The notes under the pieces are model-generated. The model was not told the DNA's origin and made no database searches. It was given only the letters and a program-made list of their open reading frames with translations. A stretch of 64,000 nucleotides of DNA from Lentisphaerota bacterium (lineage in GTDB: Bacteria; Verrucomicrobiota; Kiritimatiellia; UBA8416; VGWJ01): assembly GCA_016873635.1 (NCBI GenBank), contig VGWJ01000006.1, forward strand, positions 3,102 to 67,101, read 5' to 3'. This document shows, one piece after another, positions 3,001 to 30,906 of the stretch. The first letter of the stretch is position 1. Each line of letters begins with the position of its first letter. The position numbers and the translations under genes are program-made.

Positions 3001-4013
3001 TTGGACGCCGTTTCCTGCGCCGAGCGTTCGAGTTCCGCGATCCGGTCGCGCATGGAGGTGAAGCGCGACTCCGTCTCCACCGCCATTCGCTCGCGGCCGG
3101 AGCCCATCGTCTCGATCTCGCGGCGCGCGGCAAGGAGGGCCTGCGTGGCCTGGTCGGCGTTCCGCCGGAGGGTATCGATTTCGCGGCGCAGCTCGTTCTC
3201 GCGTGTCCGGCTGCGTTCCTGCGCCTGCAAGCCGCTGGCCCGCTCGTCGCGCAGGGCTTTGCGGGCGCGGTCCAGGCGCGCGGCCGCGTCGGCCGCGCGG
3301 GACGCGAGGTCGTCGGCGGCGCGGCTCAGTCCGGCGAGTCGCTCGCCGTCGCCGCGTTTCGCGGCCGCCTGCTGCGCGCGTTCGGCCGCCAGGCGCTCGC
3401 GCGTCTGATCCAGCTCCTTCTCCATGGCGGCGGCGCCGGAGGAGATATCCTGGATGCGGCGCTGCAGGTCATGCTCGCGCGTGCGGCTCTCGGTCTGCAG
3501 CGCGTCAAGCCGTCGCGCGCGTTCCTGGAGGTCCTTCTCCGTCTCGCGCAGGCGGCCGGCCGCCTCGGCGGCCTGTCTTTCCAGCTCCGTCATCCTTTCG
3601 AGATTCTTCTTCAGCGCGGCCATGTCCTCGCCGGCGGGCGCCACGCCGAGAATGACCGCCTTCCGGGCGCCGACGGTGGTTTGCTCGCCGGTTTCCGCGT
3701 TGCGCAGGGGCGCGTCTTCGGTGATGGTCCCTTCCACCACGAGGTCGGCCAGGGCGCGGATGTTAAGCGGGCCGTACGGGGTTCCGTCGGCCAGGGTGAC
3801 CGTCCAGACCATGCGGAGTTCCCTGAGGTTTTCGACGGGAACCCACTTGCGATTGTCGGCGGAAACCTCGTTTCCGGGCGCAATGCGGCCCTGCTCGGCC
3901 CAGGCGATGAGGTCTTTGAGAGGGGCGGGTCCGAACACGGAACCGTCGTCGATCTTGAGGTACCACTGGTCGGCCGGGCCGGCCTTGTCTGTCGGTTTCA
4001 CTGGTTCGGGCAT
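1..4013 (-). CDS. Large coiled-coil protein, C-terminus beyond window. N-terminus has two tandem GYF-like/DUF4339 domains (WYLKIDDGSVFGPAPLKDLIAWAEQGRI... and MVWTVTLADGTPYGPLNIRALADLV...), followed by >1200 aa of E/R/A/Q/L-rich heptad-like coiled coil.
   Basis: I translated the reverse complement myself. It is open from the ATG at 4013..4011 (MPEPVKPTDKAGPADQWYLK...) through position 1 with no stop, and the composition is a typical coiled coil. The same-register + ORF 18..4073 is >30% Leu with almost no E/K, so it is the antisense shadow. The gene is absent from the ORF track, presumably because it has no stop inside the window. Confidence 0.7.
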   Translation of the reverse strand, partial: MPEPVKPTDKAGPADQWYLKIDDGSVFGPAPLKDLIAWAEQGRIAPGNEVSADNRKWVPVENLRELRMVWTVTLADGTPYGPLNIRALADLVVEGTITEDAPLRNAETGEQTTVGARKAVILGVAPAGEDMAALKKNLERMTELERQAAEAAGRLRETEKDLQERARRLDALQTESRTREHDLQRRIQDISSGAAAMEKELDQTRERLAAERAQQAAAKRGDGERLAGLSRAADDLASRAADAAARLDRARKALRDERASGLQAQERSRTRENELRREIDTLRRNADQATQALLAARREIETMGSGRERMAVETESRFTSMRDRIAELERSAQETASKLTEAERQSTARAAQIEQLNRALAGSKDDLSGIRKQIEDEKNRAEAQARDLNARIEQLNAALADATKEREDARAQLETEKNRAEAQARDLNARIEELDRALAGTVEDLSATRGRLEAERADAEAQARDLSARIEQLKAALAGATEELNRARAELEAERARTESQARETETRVGDMKRQASELERKATEAAARLRAAEEDLQRRITEFARIRNESHAREQGLREVIRDMRQAAGRALEEVAGARAHAAALRAASDADAKRDEERRGDLAGRLDGLQAQGQRAAKALDGLRADLRDERARYDVILQRSSELEAERLTHTEHIKHVLAEEVERLGADLDREREAFEGLRRTFAEREKAFQDRILDLQGLVGTDFEEHRKLYERRKAALEKIGELEAELDLARRERDDAMAIGSEKEGELGARLRALAADRDQRAARAAALERELGQERAVVAELKERAQKTDNELAQRLDQVQDECRELTRRLGDRELELEEMTKLRDDAREELRRREEDLAEQRAAAEQAAQEGRARDAAAESRIDELQRRCAETTARLDQIEWDSRQRESSLSDEIEGLRNEKTYLEEQLEEGRKTVQELHLALDQERRELTRLTELYASAEENVQTREKALNEHVARLQREREDMQAQLGRARAELDEQKTLSAELDKTSTEQERLARHRLEQAEQKLQSLQAEIDGARQQAARQTEAAEALRAQLAERQAEAENRIAQAQADYRALQENLAQRAERVEASEALLRQKDQELAELRKLYETAQQELTRREDDFQKAMEQTQERYRALNVKVDEDRRIFQTERTRAQQQADELGRQRKLFDEEQKLRRKREQELAQARRQIEEERERIAQREDAVTSARTQVEDEAQRRQTAEEKLAAYEKALRDAQDRYDQLRREFDQERAMASETRQRGEQERADFAARLSQLQDEHRGVALSLEEATQELEQQRSMAEEERARNRQREDELALQVEQLRQEQLSLSEEQERATQELDQRRILHEDEQE
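2581..2970 (-). repeat. Intragenic direct tandem repeats, 3-4 copies with a ~117-120 bp period, inside the coiled-coil gene. They encode repeated ~39-aa units (...KNRAEAQARDLNARIEQLNAALA...).
   Basis: Near-identical DNA blocks containing gagctgttcgatgcgggcg(c/t)tgaggtcgcgggcctgcgcttcggcg at ~2581, ~2698, ~2812 and a partial one at ~2929. Confidence 0.6.
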
Positions 4014-4097
4014 GCCACACCTCGTTGTTGCGAGCGTCTGCGCCACGGCGCCGGGGGCGGAGGGCCGTCATGATTCCGCGCCACTCAAGTACACGGT

Positions 4098-4400
4098 TCA
4101 AGGAGTGTCAAGCTGTTTTGCCATGCGGAAGTCATCCATCACGAATCCCTTCCCGATGTCCCGGACCGGTTCGCCGGTCACGGCGAACCCCAGGCGGCGG
4201 TAGAAAGCGATGGAGCCGGCGTCATGGCGGTTGACTGTCAGCCACAATTCCCGGATGCCCAGGCCGGTGCGGAGCTCTTCAACGAAGGCGCTCACGGCCG
4301 CGGCGAGCCGTTGCCGTTGCGCCGTTCCCAGGACCGCCGCTCGCGCGGCGGGTTGCGGCAGGGCTGGCGGTTCGCGGCGACGTACACGCTTTCCTCGCCC
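4098..4400 (-). pseudogene. GNAT-family N-acetyltransferase-like C-terminal region (motif A/B-like ...LRTGLGIRELWLTVNRHDAGSIAFYRRLGFAVTGEP...). Probably a fragment or remnant: its ORF 4098..4745 would overlap the 3' end of dnaE by several hundred bp.
   Basis: The last ~70-95 aa of minus ORF 4098..4745 have a clear GNAT motif-B signature (N..A..Y..LGF). The N-terminal 120 aa are Arg/Pro-rich junk and overlap the well-conserved dnaE C-terminus. Confidence 0.3.
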
Positions 4401-23287: not shown

Positions 23288-24715
23288 TCATCGCGGAGGG
23301 GCGCGGAAGTCCTCCTTGCGCAGCCCGTAGCGTCTCATCTTGTTGAAGAGCGAGCGCGGCTCCAGTCCCGCGCGCCGGGCGGTTTCGCCTACGCGTCCGC
23401 CGGTGGCGGCGAGCAGCCTGGCAAGGTATGCGCGCTCGAAGCGCTCGACGGCGGTCTCGCGGATCTCCTTCAGCGGCCGTTCGATCCAGTCGTCGGGGAA
23501 GTCCTCGCCGCCGGGCAAGCGCGGCGCGGGCGCGCCTTCACGGCCGCCGGCGATTTCCGCCGGCAGGTCCGCGAGGCCGATCTGGTCTTCCTCGCACAGG
23601 AGCACGGCGCGTTCCAGAACGTTGATCAATTCGCGCACGTTGCCCGGCCAGGCGTATTCGCAGAGGGCGTCCATGGCTTCGGGCGCGATGCGCCTGGCGC
23701 CGCGTCCGATCCGCGCGAAAAGCCCTTCCATGATGGACGACGCCAGCGCGGGAATATCCCCGCTGCGCTCGCGCAGGGGGGGGACCTCGATGGCGACGAC
23801 TCCCAGGCGGTAGTAAAGGTCGCCGCGAAAACGCTTGTGCTCGACTTCTTCGCGGATATCCCGGTGCGTGGCGGCGATGACGCGCACGTCGACGGGTATC
23901 TTTTTTTCGCTGCCCACGGGCGCGACTTCGTAGTCCTGCAGCACGTGCAGCAGCTTGACCTGCAGGTGAAAGGGCATCTCGCCGATCTCGTCCAGGAAGA
24001 GCGTGCCGCCGTGGGCCAGCTCGAAGCATCCGCGCTGGGCGCGCGTGGCTCCGGTAAAAGCCCCTTTCTCGTGTCCGAAGAGCTGGCTTTCCAGGAGGTT
24101 CTCGGGAATGGCGCCGCAGTTCACGGAGATGAAAGGGCCGTCGGAGCGGCGGCCGTCGTTGTGAATGGCGCGCGCCAGCCGCTCCTTGCCCACGCCCGTC
24201 TCGCCGCTGATCAACAGCGGGGTGTCGCTGTCGGCCACGCGCGTCACGGTGCGCATGAAGCGCTGCATGGCGGGGCTGTCCGAAACGAAGTCGCCGAGGC
24301 CGGGGCGCGGCGTGGTGCGCCGTACGGCGACGGTCTTGCTCAGCAGTTCGCGGCGCTTCCTGGTGATCAGGCGGATGGCTTCCCAGATCACGTCGTCGGG
24401 CACGCCCGTGTAGATCGCCGCCTCGGCGCCCGCGGCGCGCAGGATGGCGAGGTCCTCGGCGTCGTCGTCGCCGGAAAGCACGATCAGGTCCGGGGCGTTG
24501 GCGGAGGACGTGAGGCGGCGGACGTTCTCCTCGACGGGTTCGGGAATCACGCGGTCGCAGACAATGAGGACGTCGGACAAAACCTGCCCGACGGTATCCC
24601 ACGCGGCCTCCCTGGCGACCGGAGCGCGCACGAATGCGTCCACGTCGCGCAGCAGGGCCAGCACGCGGGAGCGGAGCTTGATCTGGTCAACCAGCAGCAG
24701 AATGCGAAGCTGCAT
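23288..24715 (-). CDS. Sigma54-dependent Fis-family transcriptional activator (divergent receiver-like N-domain + AAA+ + HTH).
   Basis: GETGVGKE Walker [22 protein letters not shown], and a C-terminal HTH. ATG at 24715 ([11 protein letters not shown]). Confidence 0.9.
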
Positions 24716-24828
24716 CTGACGGTCCCGGCGTCCTGCGGACGATTCCCTTCGCGGCCGTGGCCGCGAAACGGACAATCACGCGGGTGAATCTATCGGAAGG
24801 CATGCGGGGGTCAATGGGAAAAGCGCGA

Positions 24829-25406: not shown

Positions 25407-26827
25407 CGCGGCTCCAGCCGACGGTAGAGGCCTATCGGAAAGAGCAGGAAACGCATCGGCCACGTGCCCATCAGCAGGTTCATGAGCTGAAGGGAACGCG
25501 CGGCCTTGGGTTCCCTGATGCGGCGCACCAGGGCGATGCATGCGATGCGCATGGGGATATTCAGCAGGAACAGCAGGTGGTAGTTGACCCACCGGTGTCC
25601 CATCGCCTCCAGATCGAACCCCGCCGTAAGCTTCAGAAATCCGCCGCCCGCGACGGCCCCCAGGCCGCCGCAGATGCCGGCAAGGCCGGTGATGGACGCA
25701 ATGAACATGGAACGGTTCCGCTGAGGCGCGATTTTGAGCATGTAGCCGTTGCCGGCGACCAGCAGCCCGGCCTCCCACATGCTGTCGAAGAAAAGCATCG
25801 CGGGGAGGAACCACAGGGCCGTTTCCCGGGTTGTCAATAGAAACGCCGCGATTACGAGCGATTTGAGGCCCATGCAGACGGACAGCACCGGCCGATGGCC
25901 GTGCCGGTCGGCGATCTTTCCCCAGAACGAAGAGACCAGCGCTATGCCCAGGCCGATGACCGACCACACCAGGGTGGCCTGCCACACGCTGAGACCGATG
26001 ACCTTGAGCACGTAGACCTGCATGAAAGACGCCGCGAAGAGCGCCGTCGCCGCCCAGGCGCACGAATAGACGACGAAAGGCCGGTACTCGGCGTGGCGCA
26101 AAGGCGCCAGCATGGTTTCGATGATGGGCCTGCCACGCATGACGACGTTCGGCGGTTCGTCCACCCACACGAACAGGCAGATGTCAAGGATGCCCGCCGC
26201 GCTTGCCACCGTCGCCAGGATGGGAAAAGTGATCGTGATGGGCGCGCGCACGAAGGAAACGTAGGCGGCGACCGCGAGGTACGAAAGCGTCCAGGTCGCG
26301 AAAAGCCATTGCTGGCGGCGGCCCCAGTAGCGGTTGAGCACGCGCCGCGGAATCAGGTCCGCCATCCACGACAGGAACAGGGGCCCGGACATGTTGACAA
26401 GCGCGCCGGAAAGAGCGGCCAGGAGCAGCACGAAGGCCACGCCCCGACTGCCGCGCAGGGAGGCAAAGAGCGCCGGCACGACGGCCATCGGGATGTACAG
26501 GAAACGTCCCGCGATCACGAGCGCCATGAACAACGCCTTGCGGCGCGGGACCACGTTGGTGATCACCGCCCCGAGGAACTGCAGCGCGAGCATGATCATG
26601 GGAATCCCGCCCAGCAGCCCGAACTGCGCGTCGGTCGCGCCGAGCGCTCGCAGGAATGCCACGAACGCGGGGCTGCCCGTGCCGACGACGAAGACCATCG
26701 CCAGGCAGCCGGCCGCGGTGATCAGCCGCAACGAGCGCGCGAGCGGAGAGGTGTGGGGTTTATCTTTCACCGTTTCATGCGCATAATCCGCATTGCCGGC
26801 CTTGAGAAGGCCGGCGGGAAGCGTCAC
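25403..26827 (-). CDS. MFS transporter (12 predicted TM segments).
   Basis: Hydrophobic periodicity throughout. Start uncertain: GTG at 26827, GTG at 26770 or ATG at 26698. Confidence 0.8.
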   Translation of the reverse strand: MTLPAGLLKAGNADYAHETVKDKPHTSPLARSLRLITAAGCLAMVFVVGTGSPAFVAFLRALGATDAQFGLLGGIPMIMLALQFLGAVITNVVPRRKALFMALVIAGRFLYIPMAVVPALFASLRGSRGVAFVLLLAALSGALVNMSGPLFLSWMADLIPRRVLNRYWGRRQQWLFATWTLSYLAVAAYVSFVRAPITITFPILATVASAAGILDICLFVWVDEPPNVVMRGRPIIETMLAPLRHAEYRPFVVYSCAWAATALFAASFMQVYVLKVIGLSVWQATLVWSVIGLGIALVSSFWGKIADRHGHRPVLSVCMGLKSLVIAAFLLTTRETALWFLPAMLFFDSMWEAGLLVAGNGYMLKIAPQRNRSMFIASITGLAGICGGLGAVAGGGFLKLTAGFDLEAMGHRWVNYHLLFLLNIPMRIACIALVRRIREPKAARSLQLMNLLMGTWPMRFLLFPIGLYRRLEPR

Positions 26828-26982
26828 TGTTGCGCCAAGTGCCTCGCGAGGAAAGAATAAAGAGGGGGAACGTCAGAACCACGGAAACCGTTCTTTCCAG
26901 GCTGAATCGTTCGGGCTGAGAGCGCGGTCGCCCCGAATCCGCGCAGGCGGCATGGACGACCGGAAACGGCCCCCTTCATACC

Positions 26983-28200
26983 TTACGACGCGGGCAGCGT
27001 CACGATTCCGAACCAGAAGCTGTCGATGGCCTGCACCACCTTCTCGAACTGCTCGAAGTCCACGGGTTTGGTGACGTAGCAGTTGGCGTTGAGGTTGTAA
27101 GCCCGCAGGATGTCTTCGTCCTGCGTCGAAGTGGTCAGCACGACTACGGGAATACGCTTGAGGTCGGGGTCGGCCTTGATCTCGGCCAGGACCTCGCGTC
27201 CGTCCTTCCTGGGAAGGTTCAGGTCCAGAAGGACCATGTCCGGGCGCGGCGCCTTCGTATAGGGAGGCTCCTTCCGCAGAAAAGCCATGGCCGCGACGCC
27301 GTCCTCGACGACGTGCAGCGTGTTGCACAGCTTGTTCTCCTTGAGAGCGATCCGAACCAGGTCGGCGTCGCCGGCATTGTCCTCAACCAGAAGGATGTCC
27401 GCCACATGCGCGTTTTTCATGTCAGGCCTCCTCTTTCGCCCGGGGCAGGGTGAAGTGGAAGGTTGAACCCTTTCCCGGCTCCGATTCAAGCCATATCTTG
27501 CCGCCATGCCGCTGAGTTCCTCCACGGGCCGTGACAGGCCGGCGGCGACGAAGACGGCAAGCAAGACGCCCGCGGCCAGGACGGCCCCGGCGATCAGCAG
27601 GCTGTCGCGCAGATGCTGTCGCAGCAGTACGACGACGAAATCCACTCCCACGCTTGCGCCCAGGCAGTACTTCCGGCCCCGCGCGTCCGTGCGGGGCACG
27701 AGCACCATCCGTCCGTGGCCCCACTCGTTCCGGAAGGAGCTGTAGGAGATGCGATTCTGGCCGAAGACGGCGTCAAAAGCGGAGGGGTCGCGGTGCGTCT
27801 CCCAGAACCTGGCGTGGTCCTGCCTGGTCACGTCATGGCCGGGCGAGGTGGACGTGGTGAAAACGATCCTGTCGTCAACCCGCATGCAGCTCCACAGGTA
27901 CTGCAGGCCCAACTCCCGGCACCGCCGGTTGTTCTCGGCGACGATCAGGCGGTCGTAATCCTCCGGCGAAATGGAATCCGGCCCGTCGAGCCCGTCGAAG
28001 AACTTCTCGTTCCCGGGCGGCACGTTGCCGGCCAGGACTGCCGCCATGAACAGCCGCCGGTCGATGCCTGCCAGCAGCTCGCGACGCATGGTCCGGCAGC
28101 TGACCGTGACCAGAATCGCCGAGACGACCGTGATCATGAGCGCGGCAGCCGCCGCGTACTGGCTGCGCAGGCTCAGGCGATCCATCAGCTTCCGCAACAT
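26983..28200 (-). CDS. Membrane protein with TM1, a periplasmic Cache-like sensor domain and TM2, fused in-frame to a C-terminal CheY-like receiver domain. No kinase or output domain.
   Basis: ORF is continuous from ATG 28200 ([11 protein letters not shown]..., SD GGAG) to 26983. The receiver portion also has its own ATG at 27420 with a strong SD (AAGAGGAGG), so it may additionally be translated alone. Confidence 0.65.
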
Positions 28201-28232
28201 GGCTTCCGCTCCATGCCCTTTCGCGCTGGGGC

Positions 28233-29138
28233 TCAGTTCATGGCCGGCTGCGCGGGTATCGTGAAATAGAAGCAGGCGCCGCGGCCCGGCTCGGACTCGA
28301 CCCACAGGCGCCCGCCATGACGCTCCACAATCGCCCGGCACAGCGCGAGCCCTGCCCCCAAGCCCGGGTATTCGCGCGCGGTGTGCAGGCGCTGGAAAAC
28401 GGCGAAGATGCGGTCGCGCCGCGCGGGATCAATGCCGATGCCGTTGTCGCTGACGGCGAAAAGGTATTCGCCGTTCCGCTCCGCGGCGCTGACGCGGATG
28501 CGCGGCGGCCGGTCTTTGGCCCTGAACTTGACGGCGTTGTCGAGCAGGCAGGCGAGGAGATCGCCAAGCTGCGCCGGGTCGCCGCTCAAGACCGGCAGGG
28601 GCGACTGCTCGATTTCGCCCCCGGCCGCCTCCAGGACCGGCGCCATGCGGCGCCGCACGGACTCGAGCAGAGCGTTGCAGTCCACGGGAGCCGGCGGCCG
28701 GTCGCAGGCCCACACGCGCGCGATCCGCAGGAGCCCGTCGAGCATAGCCTGGGCTTCGGCGGAGGCGCGCTCAACGTGACCGGCCAGGCGGGACAGTTCG
28801 GAGTCGGAGCCGTTCGCAAGGTGGCGGGCAATCAGTTCCGCGAAGGACCGCGCCTGACGGATGGGCCGCTGCAGATCGTGCGAGACGGCGTACACGAATT
28901 CCTTGAGCCTCGTTCCGGACGGCTCGCTGTCCCTGCCGGGCGGTGGACCTGCGCCGCGCGGCGCGGGCGAAGACGCGCCCGCGCAGGCCGACTTGTCGCT
29001 GGACGTCAACGTTCCTCCTTGGCTTGGCGCCTGCCGCGAGCCCCGGGGCGCACGGGGCCGGAAGTCCGCGTCATTTGTCCTCCAGGACTTCCGCCAGCAC
29101 CCGCTCCAGCTCGGCCATCCGGTACGGCTTGGGCACAA
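28233..29138 (-). CDS. Histidine kinase core (HisKA H-box [14 protein letters not shown] + HATPase_c), no TM or sensor domain. N-terminal boundary uncertain.
   Basis: H, N, G1 and G2 boxes are present. The first ~85 codons are Ser/Pro/Gly/Arg-rich and overlap the 3' end of the upstream hybrid kinase. Confidence 0.7.
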
Positions 29139-30615
29139 CGCCGCAGAACCCGTGCTCGCGCGGATTGCTCATGACGGGGTCGTCGCAGTAGCCGCTGGAC
29201 ACGATCGCCCGCGCCTGCGGGTCAATGGCCCGGAGACGCTGCATGAACTCGCGTCCGCCCATCCCGCCGGCGACGGTGAGGTCCGCGATCACGGCGCCGA
29301 AGGGCCGCCGCTCGGCCATGGCAACGCGGTAGGCCTCCAGCGCCGCGGCGCCATCGGCTGCGACAGTGACCTCGAAATGCAGGCGCTCGAGGTAGCGTTT
29401 GGCCAGGCGGCGCACGGCTTCTTCGTCATCCATGACCAGCAGCCTGCCGCCGCGCGCCGGTCGCGGCGTTCCCGCGGGCGGTTCGGCGACGGCCGCGGCG
29501 GAGGAGGCCGGCAGATAGACCGAAAAGGTGGCGCCGCATCCGAGAGTCGAGACCGCCGTGATCGTGCCGCCGTGCCTATGCACGATGGAAAACGCCGTGG
29601 CCAGCCCCAGTCCGCTGCCTTTCTGCTTCGTCGTGAAATACGGATCGAAAATCCGCGTGAGGTGCTCTTCGGGGATCCCGGGTCCCTGGTCCGCAAAAGT
29701 AATCCTCACGTACGCGCCGGGGCTCAGCGGCAGGCCGTCTCTTGCCGTGACGGCGGCGTTCTCCGCGCAAACACGGATCGTTCCGCCCTGGGGCATGGCC
29801 TGGTCGGCGTTCAGGACGATATTCCCGACGACCTGGGCGATCTGCCCGACGTCTACTTCGACGGCGCGGAGGTCCTGCGCAAGCTCGATCTGGGCGCGCA
29901 CGTCCGATCCGCGCAGCGCAAAGCTCACGGCGTCTTCGAGCACGCCGGAAAGCGCCGTGACCCTCTTTATCGGCACGCCGCCGCGCGCGAAGGTCAGGAG
30001 CTGACGCGTCAGGGACGTCGCGCGCGCCGCGGCGTTCTCCGCCTCGTTGAGCAGTTCGGCGCGCTGGTGGTCGGGCGCCGAGCGCGCCAGCGAGATGTTG
30101 CCGAGAATGCCCATCAGCAGGTTGTTGAAGTCGTGCGCGATGCCGCCGGCCAGGACGCCGAGGCTTTCCAGCTTCTCGATGCGCATGTTCTGCTCGCGTT
30201 CGCGCGCTTCCAGGATCTGCTGCTGCATGCGGTGGCGTTCGATCGCGTGCAGCAGGGCGCGTCGCACATCGTCGCGGTCGGCCTTGCCCTTGACGAGATA
30301 GTCCTGGGCGCCGTGGTGCACCGCTTCCAGGGCGACGCCCTCGTCGTCCATGCCGGTGATCACGACCACGGGCGCGGGGATGCCGGCTTCGTGAATTGTC
30401 TTGAGCGCGTCCAGGCCGCGCGCATCGGGCAGGGACAGGTCCAGCAGCACGGCGTCCGGCGTGGCCGCGCGCAGCGCTTCCAGCGCCGCGGCCAGCGAGG
30501 CGGCGGTCTTCACGGAAATGTGCGGCAGGGCGGAATCGGCCAGCATGGCCCGCACAAGGCTGGCGTCCCGGGGATCGTCCTCCACCAGCAGCACATGGAG
30601 CGTCTCGGCCTGCAT
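29071..30615 (-). CDS. Hybrid sensor histidine kinase/response regulator (REC - HisKA - HATPase_c - REC).
   Basis: MQAETLHVLLVEDD receiver, H-box GIAHDFNNLL, HATPase G-boxes, and a second receiver (LLVMDDEEAV...). ATG at 30615. Confidence 0.85.
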   Translation of the reverse strand: MQAETLHVLLVEDDPRDASLVRAMLADSALPHISVKTAASLAAALEALRAATPDAVLLDLSLPDARGLDALKTIHEAGIPAPVVVITGMDDEGVALEAVHHGAQDYLVKGKADRDDVRRALLHAIERHRMQQQILEAREREQNMRIEKLESLGVLAGGIAHDFNNLLMGILGNISLARSAPDHQRAELLNEAENAAARATSLTRQLLTFARGGVPIKRVTALSGVLEDAVSFALRGSDVRAQIELAQDLRAVEVDVGQIAQVVGNIVLNADQAMPQGGTIRVCAENAAVTARDGLPLSPGAYVRITFADQGPGIPEEHLTRIFDPYFTTKQKGSGLGLATAFSIVHRHGGTITAVSTLGCGATFSVYLPASSAAAVAEPPAGTPRPARGGRLLVMDDEEAVRRLAKRYLERLHFEVTVAADGAAALEAYRVAMAERRPFGAVIADLTVAGGMGGREFMQRLRAIDPQARAIVSSGYCDDPVMSNPREHGFCGVVPKPYRMAELERVLAEVLEDK

Positions 30616-30906
30616 GCCCTGTCTCGCGCAGCGGTTTCCCTGAACCTCTCCCGCCGGCGGAGCGCTCGACGCCGCGTCCCGCAAACAGGGTTTCGGACCG
30701 CTCGGGAAAGAATATAGCGGCTAAAACGTTGTGCTACAAGCGCTATCGACGGCCGCGCAGCCGTGGGCGACGGGCCGGTCGGCCATGCGGCGGGCGCCCT
30801 TGCTTCCCGGCTGTTTCTCCGCGGGCCAAAAGGGTGGCGGCGGCGCGCGCGCGCTGCTATGCTCGGGAGGCGAATCGGGTCCGGGCGGCGGCAAGGAGTA
30901 GCGGAC

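What the first reader, a model, noticed from the sequence alone, without database searches (positions are those of the whole stretch)
26983..28200. Periplasmic Cache-like sensor with two TM helices fused directly to a receiver domain, without a kinase
The ORF is continuous from a TM-Cache-TM module (~260 aa) through a ~38-aa linker into a complete CheY-like receiver. The linker itself contains a strong SD (AAGAGGAGG) plus ATG, so the receiver may also be made alone. A membrane sensor carrying a phospho-acceptor instead of a kinase core is unusual. It could act as a ligand-modulated phosphate sink or relay for the adjacent soluble HK core (28233..29138) and hybrid HK (29071..30615). This would be an inverted-logic phosphorelay.
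Basis: seen in the sequence. Interest (0 to 1): 0.5.

Follow-up and report, generated by a model that had tools for sequence, protein, structure and literature searches.

The report
Deletion-made sensor–receiver fusion ORF
The continuous "sensor fused to receiver" gene is real, but it is what remains of an ordinary membrane sensor kinase gene after an internal out-of-frame deletion removed the kinase core and ran the remnant into the separate response-regulator gene downstream, so it is gene decay and not a new signalling design.

Summary
Window 26983..28200 (minus strand) is one open 405-codon frame: TM helix, periplasmic PDC/Cache-fold domain, TM helix, a 30-residue linker, then a complete CheY-like receiver with a strong SD and ATG inside the linker.

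The interpretation does not hold. The linker is the 3' end of a histidine-kinase ATPase domain read in the wrong frame. In the other frame, 27513..27422 reads [33 protein letters not shown], and the receiver's ATG follows one base later, a layout typical of kinase/regulator operons.

- Homology to the closest sensor relative (74% identical, continuing into HAMP and HisKA) stops at residue 230.
- DNA homology to "kinase tail + receiver" loci of the closest receiver relatives starts at 27513.
- None of 163 sensor-family proteins has a receiver without a kinase.
- Nearly all close receiver relatives are stand-alone proteins of about 145 aa, and NCBI annotates this one that way.
- Eleven contigs from independent assemblies of one near-clonal Lentisphaerae population carry the deletion, so it is not an assembly artefact.

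Most likely the sensor kinase is dead, and the Rcp1-like regulator is still made from its own start. A fused, membrane-tethered product may also be made. Interest is low.

The parts
26983..28200 (-). Continuous 405-codon fused ORF (sensor remnant + frame-shifted kinase tail + receiver)
   Evidence: ORF list and translation. The exact product is called on 10 contigs, and a one-residue variant on an eleventh.
28090..28158 (-). TM helix 1 (residues 15-37)
   Evidence: Kyte-Doolittle windows >=1.6. Part of the long N-terminal helix in the AF2 model.
27607..28089 (-). Periplasmic PDC/sCache-fold sensor domain (residues 38-198) of an uncurated family
27532..27606 (-). TM helix 2 (residues 199-223)
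   Evidence: Hydropathy. C-terminal helix 187-229 in the model.
27511..27531 (-). First seven residues of the former HAMP domain (RPVEELS). This is the last stretch homologous to intact relatives.
   Evidence: P0001 reads GLSQPVEELSDAAESIAGGDL..., which is HAMP PF00672. The other relatives have S.P...LT at this position.
27510..27513 (-). Deletion junction (AGCG, a candidate 4-nt microhomology)
   Evidence: Sensor homology ends at 27511. blastn homology to the L021 and L022 kinase tails begins at 27513. DNA identity steps from 21-28% to 67-68% here.
27422..27513 (-). Relic of the 3' end of the kinase's HATPase_c domain. In its original frame it reads [30 protein letters not shown] (TGA at 27424..27422). 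In the fused frame it is translated as the 'linker' [30 protein letters not shown].
   Evidence: Three-frame translation. The 21 best PDB hits are all histidine kinases, aligned to the C-terminus of their ATP-binding domains, best E 1.9e-5. It matches the kinase tails of L013, L017, L021 and L022. The codon-position GC maximum shifts to the other frame.
27427..27435 (-). Shine-Dalgarno AAGAGGAGG of the receiver gene, embedded in the kinase's last codons
   Evidence: Sequence. The homologous KEGAA/AAGGAGG tail precedes the receiver gene in L022.
26983..27420 (-). Rcp1-like single-domain response regulator gene (145 codons + TAA), probably still translated from its own ATG
   Evidence: PF00072. 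Co-linear with the stand-alone proteins 5te9, Rcp1 and RcpA, E 1e-44 to 1e-52. 100% identical to NCBI MBM4142376.1, 145 aa. Catalytic residues E13/D14, D66, T96 and K118 are conserved.
28233..29009 (-). Adjacent sensorless kinase (258 aa, HisKA + HATPase_c) with its own SD AAGGAGG and TTG start. It is a separate gene and not the missing core.
   Evidence: Pfam. Start-site context. Only 34% identical to P0001's HisKA region, against 74% for the sensor.
29071..30615 (-). Adjacent hybrid kinase REC-HisKA-HATPase_c-REC (called as 514 aa)
   Evidence: Pfam. Gene call in L001.

Best explanation
The ancestral locus was an ordinary two-gene module. It comprised a membrane sensor histidine kinase (TM, PDC/Cache-fold periplasmic domain, TM, HAMP, coiled coil, Cph1-type HisKA, HATPase_c; about 520 aa), followed immediately by its cognate Rcp1-like single-domain response regulator, whose SD lies within the last codons of the kinase. 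An internal deletion of roughly 270-300 codons, with a length that is not a multiple of three, removed everything from the eighth residue of HAMP to just before the '(E/Q)RHGG' motif near the end of the ATPase domain. The breakpoint is at 27510..27513. The remaining 29 kinase codons are now read one base out of frame. That frame happens to contain no stop, bypasses the kinase's TGA, and coincides with the frame of the receiver gene, so a 405-codon chimeric ORF results. Shown: the two-sided homology break, the out-of-frame kinase relic, the intact receiver gene with its own start signals, and the presence of the deletion in every contig recovered from a natural, near-clonal Lentisphaerae population. 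Inferred: the sensor kinase function is lost, because there is no phospho-accepting His, no ATPase, and no HAMP to relay a TM2 movement. Also inferred: the receiver is still made as a free 145-aa protein from its own SD and ATG. It may now be an orphan served, if at all, by another kinase such as the adjacent sensorless one. Ribosomes that start at 28200 would additionally produce a membrane-tethered receiver on a probably disordered R/S/P/G-rich linker. That product is a by-product of the deletion and not a selected design.
For: (1) Three-frame reading of 27370..27640: frame A reads ...[21 protein letters not shown]..., and frame B reads [33 protein letters not shown], followed by C and then ATG.
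(2) The frame-B peptide's 21 best PDB hits are all histidine kinases, aligned to the last ~26 residues of their ATP-binding domains (E 1.9e-5 to 3e-2). It matches the kinase C-termini of sensor-family relatives L013 ([24 protein letters not shown]) and L017.
(3) The closest sensor relative, P0001, is 74% identical over residues 1-230 and continues as HAMP and HisKA. Identity ends after PVEELS.
(4) blastn: window 27513..26993 aligns without interruption to the kinase tail, stop and receiver of L021 (78.5%, 521 nt, E 1e-124) and L022 (75.8%). Identity is 21-28% just upstream of 27513 and 67-68% in the tail.
(5) In L021-L023 the 80-87% identical receivers are separate genes that abut or overlap a complete 509-531-aa sensor-HAMP-HisKA-HATPase kinase. 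L009, a sensor-family member, has the same kinase-then-receiver layout.
(6) Census: of 163 sensor-family proteins, 115 have a kinase core detectable with two queries. 23 have a receiver, always at least 363 residues beyond the sensor and behind a kinase core. None has a receiver without a kinase. Of ten long members without a hit that were scanned, nine carry kinase domains of other classes (HisKA_2, HisKA_3, HATPase_c) and one is GGDEF + HD-GYP. Nine of the ten have HAMP straight after the sensor.
(7) Codon-position GC is 0.66/0.46/0.89 in the sensor and 0.66/0.33/0.85 in the receiver. In the linker it is 0.53/0.70/0.60 in the fused frame, so the maximum falls at position 3 of the kinase frame.
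(8) All 120 listed receiver relatives are annotated with Response_reg only; 118 are 136-158 aa, and the other two (216 and 181 aa) come from contigs of about 1 kb. NCBI calls this one as a 145-aa protein.
(9) The identical junction occurs in 11 contigs from independent assemblies.
Against: The sensor part shows no further decay. It has no stops or frameshifts in 690 nt, and all 26 family-invariant residues are present in the window copy. That fits a very recent deletion, but also fits continued selection on the remnant. Every contig recovered carries the deletion, and no intact allele was found. No intact orthologue with DNA was available: P0001's contig could not be read, and there the kinase is itself split into two ORFs. 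The deletion size and the microhomology are therefore estimates from more distant relatives. Nothing here shows whether the fused product is made, or whether it is stable.
Confidence: 0.9

Rival explanations
1. Nascent functional fusion. The deletion product has been kept because a membrane-tethered, sensor-linked receiver is useful, for example as a phosphate sink or localised acceptor for the adjacent sensorless kinase (28233..29009) or the hybrid kinase.
For: The ORF is open and present in every contig of the sampled population. The sensor remnant keeps all family-invariant residues. The receiver keeps all catalytic residues. Two kinase genes lie directly upstream on the same strand.
Against: The linker is unmodified out-of-frame kinase sequence, so there has been no time or selection to shape it. 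The HAMP and DHp elements that transmit TM2 movement are missing, so ligand control of the receiver has no evident path. None of 163 family members has this architecture. The only amino-acid polymorphism in the population replaces a family-invariant Leu with Arg (L167R), which suggests relaxed constraint, although it is a single observation. Presence in every contig of a near-clonal population (0-5 SNPs per 5-21 kb) says little about selection.
Confidence: 0.07
2. Assembly or sequencing artefact. The true genome has an intact kinase gene, and the deletion was produced by assembly collapse or a chimeric join.
For: The data are metagenomic. Kinase genes with similar C-terminal tails lie nearby: the tail of the 28233..29009 kinase reads [16 protein letters not shown].
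Against: The same junction is recovered in 11 contigs from different samples and two assembly pipelines, JGI and Logan. These contigs differ from each other by a few SNPs, so they are independent reconstructions. Any shared sequence at the junction is at most about 4-7 nt, far below assembler k-mer sizes. NCBI's MAG carries the same receiver.
Confidence: 0.02
3. Two ordinary genes separated by a missed stop codon.
For: The receiver has its own SD and ATG.
Against: There is no stop in the fused frame in any of the 11 contigs. The product is identical in ten of them and differs at one residue (L167R) in the eleventh. The only stop is the kinase's TGA, in the other frame.
Confidence: 0.01

Closest known systems
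Cph1/Rcp1-type two-component operons: a sensor histidine kinase with an SHDLQEPLR-type H-box, followed by a single-domain CheY-like regulator (Rcp1, RcpA, RcpB)
   Same: The receiver is 1:1 co-linear with Rcp1 (1i3c, 1jlk), RcpA (1k68) and 5te9, at E 1e-44 to 1e-52. Its closest relatives sit directly behind complete kinases with the SHDLQEPLR H-box. P0001, the closest sensor relative, has the same H-box. The SD of the regulator lies within the kinase's last codons.
   Different: The input is a periplasmic PDC-fold domain and not a phytochrome. In the window, the kinase's HAMP, HisKA and most of its HATPase_c are deleted.
Extracytoplasmic PDC / single-Cache (sCache) sensor domains of kinases and chemoreceptors, such as CitA, WalK and the formate chemoreceptor 8py0
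   Different: Sequence identity is 5-13%, and no Pfam Cache, CHASE or PAS family matches any of 18 members at E<=1. The family has its own invariant motifs: LQYLWS, FTT.TSP and [10 protein letters not shown].
Bacterial pseudogenes and chimeric ORFs created by internal out-of-frame deletions
   Same: There are intact homologues elsewhere, a sharp two-sided homology break, an out-of-frame relic of the lost domain, and read-through into the next gene.
   Different: Here the new frame stays open and lands in frame with an intact downstream gene, so a full-length two-domain chimera can be translated. Three of the seven relatives' kinase tails examined are stop-free in the alternative frames, so this outcome is not rare in high-GC DNA.

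Membership tests
CheY-like receiver / Rcp1-like single-domain response regulator | Receiver (REC) domain recognised by the curated profile | tested here: met
   PF00072, 68 bits against a cutoff of 30.2, residues 269-389.
CheY-like receiver / Rcp1-like single-domain response regulator | Acidic pocket, phospho-acceptor Asp, and conserved Thr and Lys | tested here: met
   E13/D14, D66, T96 and K118 (numbering from the internal Met) are conserved in the alignment with stand-alone relatives.
CheY-like receiver / Rcp1-like single-domain response regulator | Stand-alone protein of about 140-155 aa with its own translation start, encoded directly downstream of the cognate kinase | tested here: met
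   SD AAGAGGAGG lies 6 nt before the ATG at 27420. The protein is co-linear with 5te9, Rcp1 and RcpA from residue 8 or 9. NCBI calls it as a 145-aa protein. Relatives sit behind kinases. Actual use of the internal start was not tested.
Transmembrane sensor histidine kinase (HisKA + HATPase_c) | HAMP or other linker that transmits signal from TM2 | tested here: not met
   Only 7 residues (RPVEELS) remain, and Pfam makes no HAMP call.
Transmembrane sensor histidine kinase (HisKA + HATPase_c) | DHp/HisKA domain with the phospho-accepting His | tested here: not met
   Absent in all frames between 27422 and 27531.
Transmembrane sensor histidine kinase (HisKA + HATPase_c) | Complete ATP-binding HATPase_c domain (N, G1, F and G2 boxes) | tested here: not met
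   Only the last ~29 codons survive, and they are out of frame with the sensor.
Cache / PDC extracytoplasmic sensor domains | PDC fold between two TM helices | tested here: met
Cache / PDC extracytoplasmic sensor domains | Sequence membership in a curated Cache, CHASE or PAS family | tested here: not met
   No such Pfam hit at E<=1 for the window protein or for 17 relatives. No NCBIfam hit in the sensor part.
Deletion-derived pseudogene / chimeric ORF | Intact homologues carry the missing segment, and the homology break is sharp on both sides | tested here: met
   P0001 and 14 loci continue into HAMP and a kinase. The 5' break is at 27511 and the 3' break at 27513.
Deletion-derived pseudogene / chimeric ORF | Relaxed selection on the remnant | tested here: inconclusive
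   There are only two polymorphisms in the ORF: one synonymous, and one L167R at an invariant residue. No further disabling mutations are present.
   This needs biochemistry. Structurally, no transmitter element links TM2 to the receiver.

The most novel reading that the evidence does not exclude
The chimeric protein is actually produced, and it represents a new domain architecture caught at birth. It would be a PDC sensor tethered through a de novo linker, recruited from frame-shifted ATPase coding sequence, to an Rcp1-like receiver. It would be present throughout a wild Lentisphaerae population and would act as a membrane-localised phospho-acceptor for the adjacent sensorless kinase.
Probability: 0.07. 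Interest if true: 0.5.

Novelty: already known. Interest (0 to 1): 0.15.

Why it matters
Mainly as a caution. In high-GC genomes, out-of-frame deletions often leave long open frames, so an "unusual domain architecture" read from a continuous ORF can be a fresh pseudogene. Translating the linker in the other two frames exposes this at once. The locus is also a tidy natural example of a deletion fusing two genes in frame with a linker taken from frame-shifted coding sequence, which is one proposed route to new multidomain proteins. Nothing here indicates that this fusion has acquired a function. The annotation consequence is practical: the receiver should be called as a separate 145-aa response regulator, as NCBI does, and the upstream part as a truncated sensor-kinase pseudogene.

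Tried and rejected
- **Relocated kinase core:** I considered that the adjacent sensorless kinase (28233..29009) might be the missing core, moved upstream by a rearrangement or duplication. Rejected. It has its own SD and TTG start, its own complete C-terminal tail, and is only 34% identical to P0001's HisKA region, against 74% for the sensor.
- **P0001 contig DNA:** I tried to obtain it to define the deletion precisely. The sample file was too large, and the metagenome scan did not return the contig.
- **P0025 context:** the NCBI 145-aa receiver is not in the encoding index, so I could not see how NCBI annotates the upstream remnant.
- **Full-length AF2 model:** abandoned. The combined alignment A6 misplaced the sensor homologues onto the receiver, and only session-derived alignments can be submitted.
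- **Promoter/terminator scan of 26700..30900:** no promoter-like sites, and 5 terminator-like sites against 2.5 +/- 1.9 expected, so it was uninformative.
- **Pfam on the 39-aa frame-B peptide:** no HATPase_c hit because the peptide is too short. The PDB sequence search and the DNA alignments settled its identity instead.
- **Literature search for kinase-less sensor-receiver proteins:** nothing pertinent.

Full report
**1. The observation**

On the minus strand, 28200..26983 is a single open frame of 405 codons (ATG to TAA) with no internal stop.
- Two strongly hydrophobic segments lie at residues 15-37 and 199-223.
- Pfam recognises only a receiver domain, residues 269-389, E 1e-18. It finds no Cache, HAMP, HisKA or HATPase_c domain.
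- The proportions need correcting: the sensor module is 230 residues, the "linker" is 30 residues (231-260), and the receiver product is 145 residues.

**2. The sensor is Cache-like by fold only**

An AlphaFold2 model of residues 1-230, built on 24 family sequences, is confident (mean pLDDT 90.4, pTM 0.82). It has a long N-terminal helix, a five-stranded sheet, and a C-terminal helix running into TM2.

By sequence, the domain belongs to no curated family. There is no Pfam hit at E<=1 in any of 18 members, and nothing in NCBIfam. It is nevertheless a large and well-conserved family:
- 801 representatives at E<=1e-3 in the 50%-clustered library, with the domain always at the N-terminus.
- 26 invariant residues, including the motifs LQYLWS, FTT.TSP and [10 protein letters not shown].

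**3. The linker is a kinase tail read in the wrong frame**

Translating 27640..27370 in three frames gives two readings of the same bases:
- Fused frame: ...[57 protein letters not shown]...
- Frame one base earlier, over 27513..27422: [30 protein letters not shown], then TGA (27424..27422), one base (C), then the receiver's ATG.

That peptide is the canonical C-terminal end of a histidine-kinase ATP-binding domain. As a 31-residue query, its 21 best PDB hits are all histidine kinases, aligned to the last ~26 residues of the catalytic domain, with a best E of 1.9e-5. It closely matches the C-termini of kinases that carry the same sensor family: L013 ([24 protein letters not shown]) and L017 ([24 protein letters not shown]).

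Codon-position GC supports the frame change:

| Segment | GC at codon positions 1, 2, 3 (fused frame) |
|---|---|
| Sensor | 0.66, 0.46, 0.89 |
| 90-nt linker | 0.53, 0.70, 0.60 |
| Receiver | 0.66, 0.33, 0.85 |

The maximum in the linker falls at the third position of the kinase frame.

**4. The homology break is sharp on both sides and meets at one point**

- *5' side.* The closest sensor relative, P0001, is 74% identical across residues 1-230. It then continues as ...PVEELSDAAESIAGGDL... into HAMP and an SHDLQEPLR-type HisKA. The window departs from it immediately after PVEELS, at 27511.
- *3' side.* The closest receiver relatives (P0026 at 87%, P0028 at 80%) are separate genes that abut or overlap the end of complete 509-531-aa sensor-HAMP-HisKA-HATPase_c kinases in L021-L023. 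blastn of window 27541..26983 against these loci gives one uninterrupted alignment of 521 nt (78.5% and 75.8% identity; E 1e-124 and 5e-105). It begins at window 27513 and runs through the kinase tail, the stop and the receiver.

In the three-way DNA alignment, identity to L021 and L022 is 21-28% (random level) in the 57 bases upstream of 27513. It is 67-68% in the tail and 75% at the start of the receiver.

The junction is therefore at 27510..27513. AGCG is a possible 4-nt microhomology, inferred from P0001's ...LSD... and the relatives' ...GAGCGGCAT...

Judged from L009, L021, L022 and P0001 plus its downstream ORF, the missing segment is about 270-300 codons. It runs from the eighth residue of HAMP to just before (E/Q)RHGG, and its length cannot be a multiple of three.

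**5. Family-wide architecture**

All 14 related loci with DNA carry the sensor at the N-terminus of a longer frame: TM2-HAMP-(PAS)-HisKA-HATPase_c(-REC) in the eleven complete ones, and at least HAMP in the three that run off a contig end.
- L009 has the predicted ancestral layout: a 517-aa kinase, then a separate single-domain receiver 25 nt downstream.
- L017 has a receiver-containing gene 80 nt downstream.

In a local census of 163 family proteins:
- 115 have a kinase core detectable with two phmmer queries.
- 23 have a receiver, always behind a kinase core and at least 363 residues past the sensor.
- None has a receiver without a kinase.

Of ten long members without a hit that were scanned with Pfam, nine carry kinase domains of other classes (HisKA_2, HisKA_3, HATPase_c) and one is GGDEF + HD-GYP. 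Nine of the ten have HAMP directly after the sensor.

On the receiver side, 7,523 proteins match at E<=1e-40. All 120 listed are annotated with Response_reg only. Of these, 118 are 136-158 aa, and the other two (216 and 181 aa) come from contigs of about 1 kb. The receiver is co-linear from its residue 8 or 9 to its end with the stand-alone structures 5te9, Rcp1 and RcpA. It retains E13/D14, D66, T96 and K118.

**6. The deletion is real, not an artefact**

The exact 405-aa product is called on 10 contigs from two JGI samples and at least four SRA-run assemblies. An eleventh contig, L025, carries a variant with one substitution. These contigs differ from the window by 0-5 SNPs per 5-21 kb. They are therefore independent reconstructions of one near-clonal population, and all have the same junction.

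NCBI holds a Lentisphaerae MAG protein, MBM4142376.1, that is 100% identical to the receiver alone and is annotated as a 145-aa response regulator.

**7. Age and selection**

The kinase relic is still a near-consensus motif in its old frame. The sensor remnant has no further lesions and keeps all invariant residues. The deletion is therefore recent on the scale of sequence divergence.

Within the population there are only two polymorphisms in the ORF:
- A synonymous change at 27577.
- L167R at 27701, which puts Arg at a family-invariant Leu in the [10 protein letters not shown] strand.

The second is suggestive of relaxed constraint, but it is a single observation.

**8. Mechanistic reading**

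*Shown.* The former kinase has lost HAMP, the phospho-accepting His domain, and all but the last ~29 codons of its ATPase. The receiver gene and its translation signals are intact.

*Inferred.*
- The sensor kinase is non-functional.
- The receiver is still produced as a free Rcp1-like protein from its own start. It may be an orphan, or may be served by another kinase.
- Ribosomes that start at 28200 would read through and make a membrane-anchored receiver on an R/S/P/G-rich 30-residue tether. That tether has no evident capacity to transmit a periplasmic signal.

The adjacent 258-aa sensorless kinase (28233..29009) is a candidate partner for the receiver. It has its own SD and TTG start, and an [10 protein letters not shown]-box of the same general type. 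It is not the relocated missing core, being 34% identical to P0001's HisKA region against 74% for the sensor.

A read-through of this kind is not improbable. Three of the seven relatives' kinase tails examined are stop-free in both alternative frames.

**9. Comparison with known systems, and verdict**

The parts are ordinary:
- A PDC-fold sensor kinase of an uncurated family.
- A Cph1/Rcp1-type kinase-regulator pairing.
- Two further kinases upstream.

What made the locus look unusual is an out-of-frame internal deletion. The [quoted passage not shown] reading is not supported.

| Explanation | Confidence |
|---|---|
| Deletion-derived chimera / kinase pseudogene | about 0.9 |
| Functional neo-fusion | about 0.07 |
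| Assembly artefact | about 0.02 |

Novelty: nothing beyond known kinds. Interest is low (0.15). The locus is chiefly useful as an annotation correction and as a clean example of gene fusion by a frameshifting deletion.

Noticed in passing
window 27607..28089 (-); relatives L007-L020, P0001-P0024, P0145-P0283: The periplasmic domain belongs to a large, well-conserved sensor family: 801 representatives at 50% clustering, with invariant motifs [22 protein letters not shown] and GAS. It has a PDC/sCache fold but matches no Pfam or NCBIfam model at E<=1. It appears to be an uncurated sensor-domain family spread across Lentisphaerae, Verrucomicrobia, Thermodesulfobacteriota and Omnitrophota. Its ligand is unknown.
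   Followed up: partly
P0001 contig (JGI 3300042731, 2890 bp; genes at 1202-2311 and 2333-2791): The closest relative's kinase is itself split into a 369-aa sensor-HAMP-HisKA ORF and a separate 152-aa HATPase_c ORF, 22 nt apart. This could be a frameshift, a sequencing error, or a second independent disruption of this kinase lineage.
   Followed up: no
window 28233..29009 (-): A sensorless 258-aa histidine kinase (HisKA + HATPase_c) with a TTG start after AAGGAGG and a low-complexity, Pro/Gly/Ser-rich ~35-residue N-terminus directly before the H-box (SHDLQRPIR). It has no input domain at all. It might be the present phosphodonor of the orphaned receiver, or itself a truncated gene.
   Followed up: partly
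window 27701 (L025 position 10500): One contig of the population carries L167R in the sensor remnant, at a residue invariant in all 18 aligned family members. The only other SNP in the ORF (27577) is synonymous.
   Followed up: yes
window 23288..24775 (-): A sigma-54-dependent activator (AAA+ domain and HTH_8) whose N-terminal ~160 residues get no Pfam Response_reg call at E<=1. By eye they resemble a degenerate receiver.
   Followed up: no
P0016 (322 aa), P0009 (202 aa), P0022 (170 aa, Desulfonatronum thioautotrophicum): Other odd members of the sensor family. One is fused to a PgpA-like phosphatidylglycerophosphatase domain (PF04608). Two are truncated copies on long contigs, ending inside or just after the sensor. 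This suggests that disrupted copies of this family are not rare.
   Followed up: no
L014 (Ga0194125_10048459, same metagenome as L001), 3457..4113: A second member of the sensor family, 48% identical and followed by HAMP, occurs in the same sample as the window's population. Whether it belongs to the same genome is unknown.
   Followed up: no
window 29071..30615 and 28233..29009 (-): The best NCBIfam similarities of the hybrid kinase and the sensorless kinase are to the Leptospira LvrB and LvrA models. Both are far below the curated cutoffs (141 bits against 500, and 124 against 1200), so this is a resemblance of domain organisation only.
   Followed up: no
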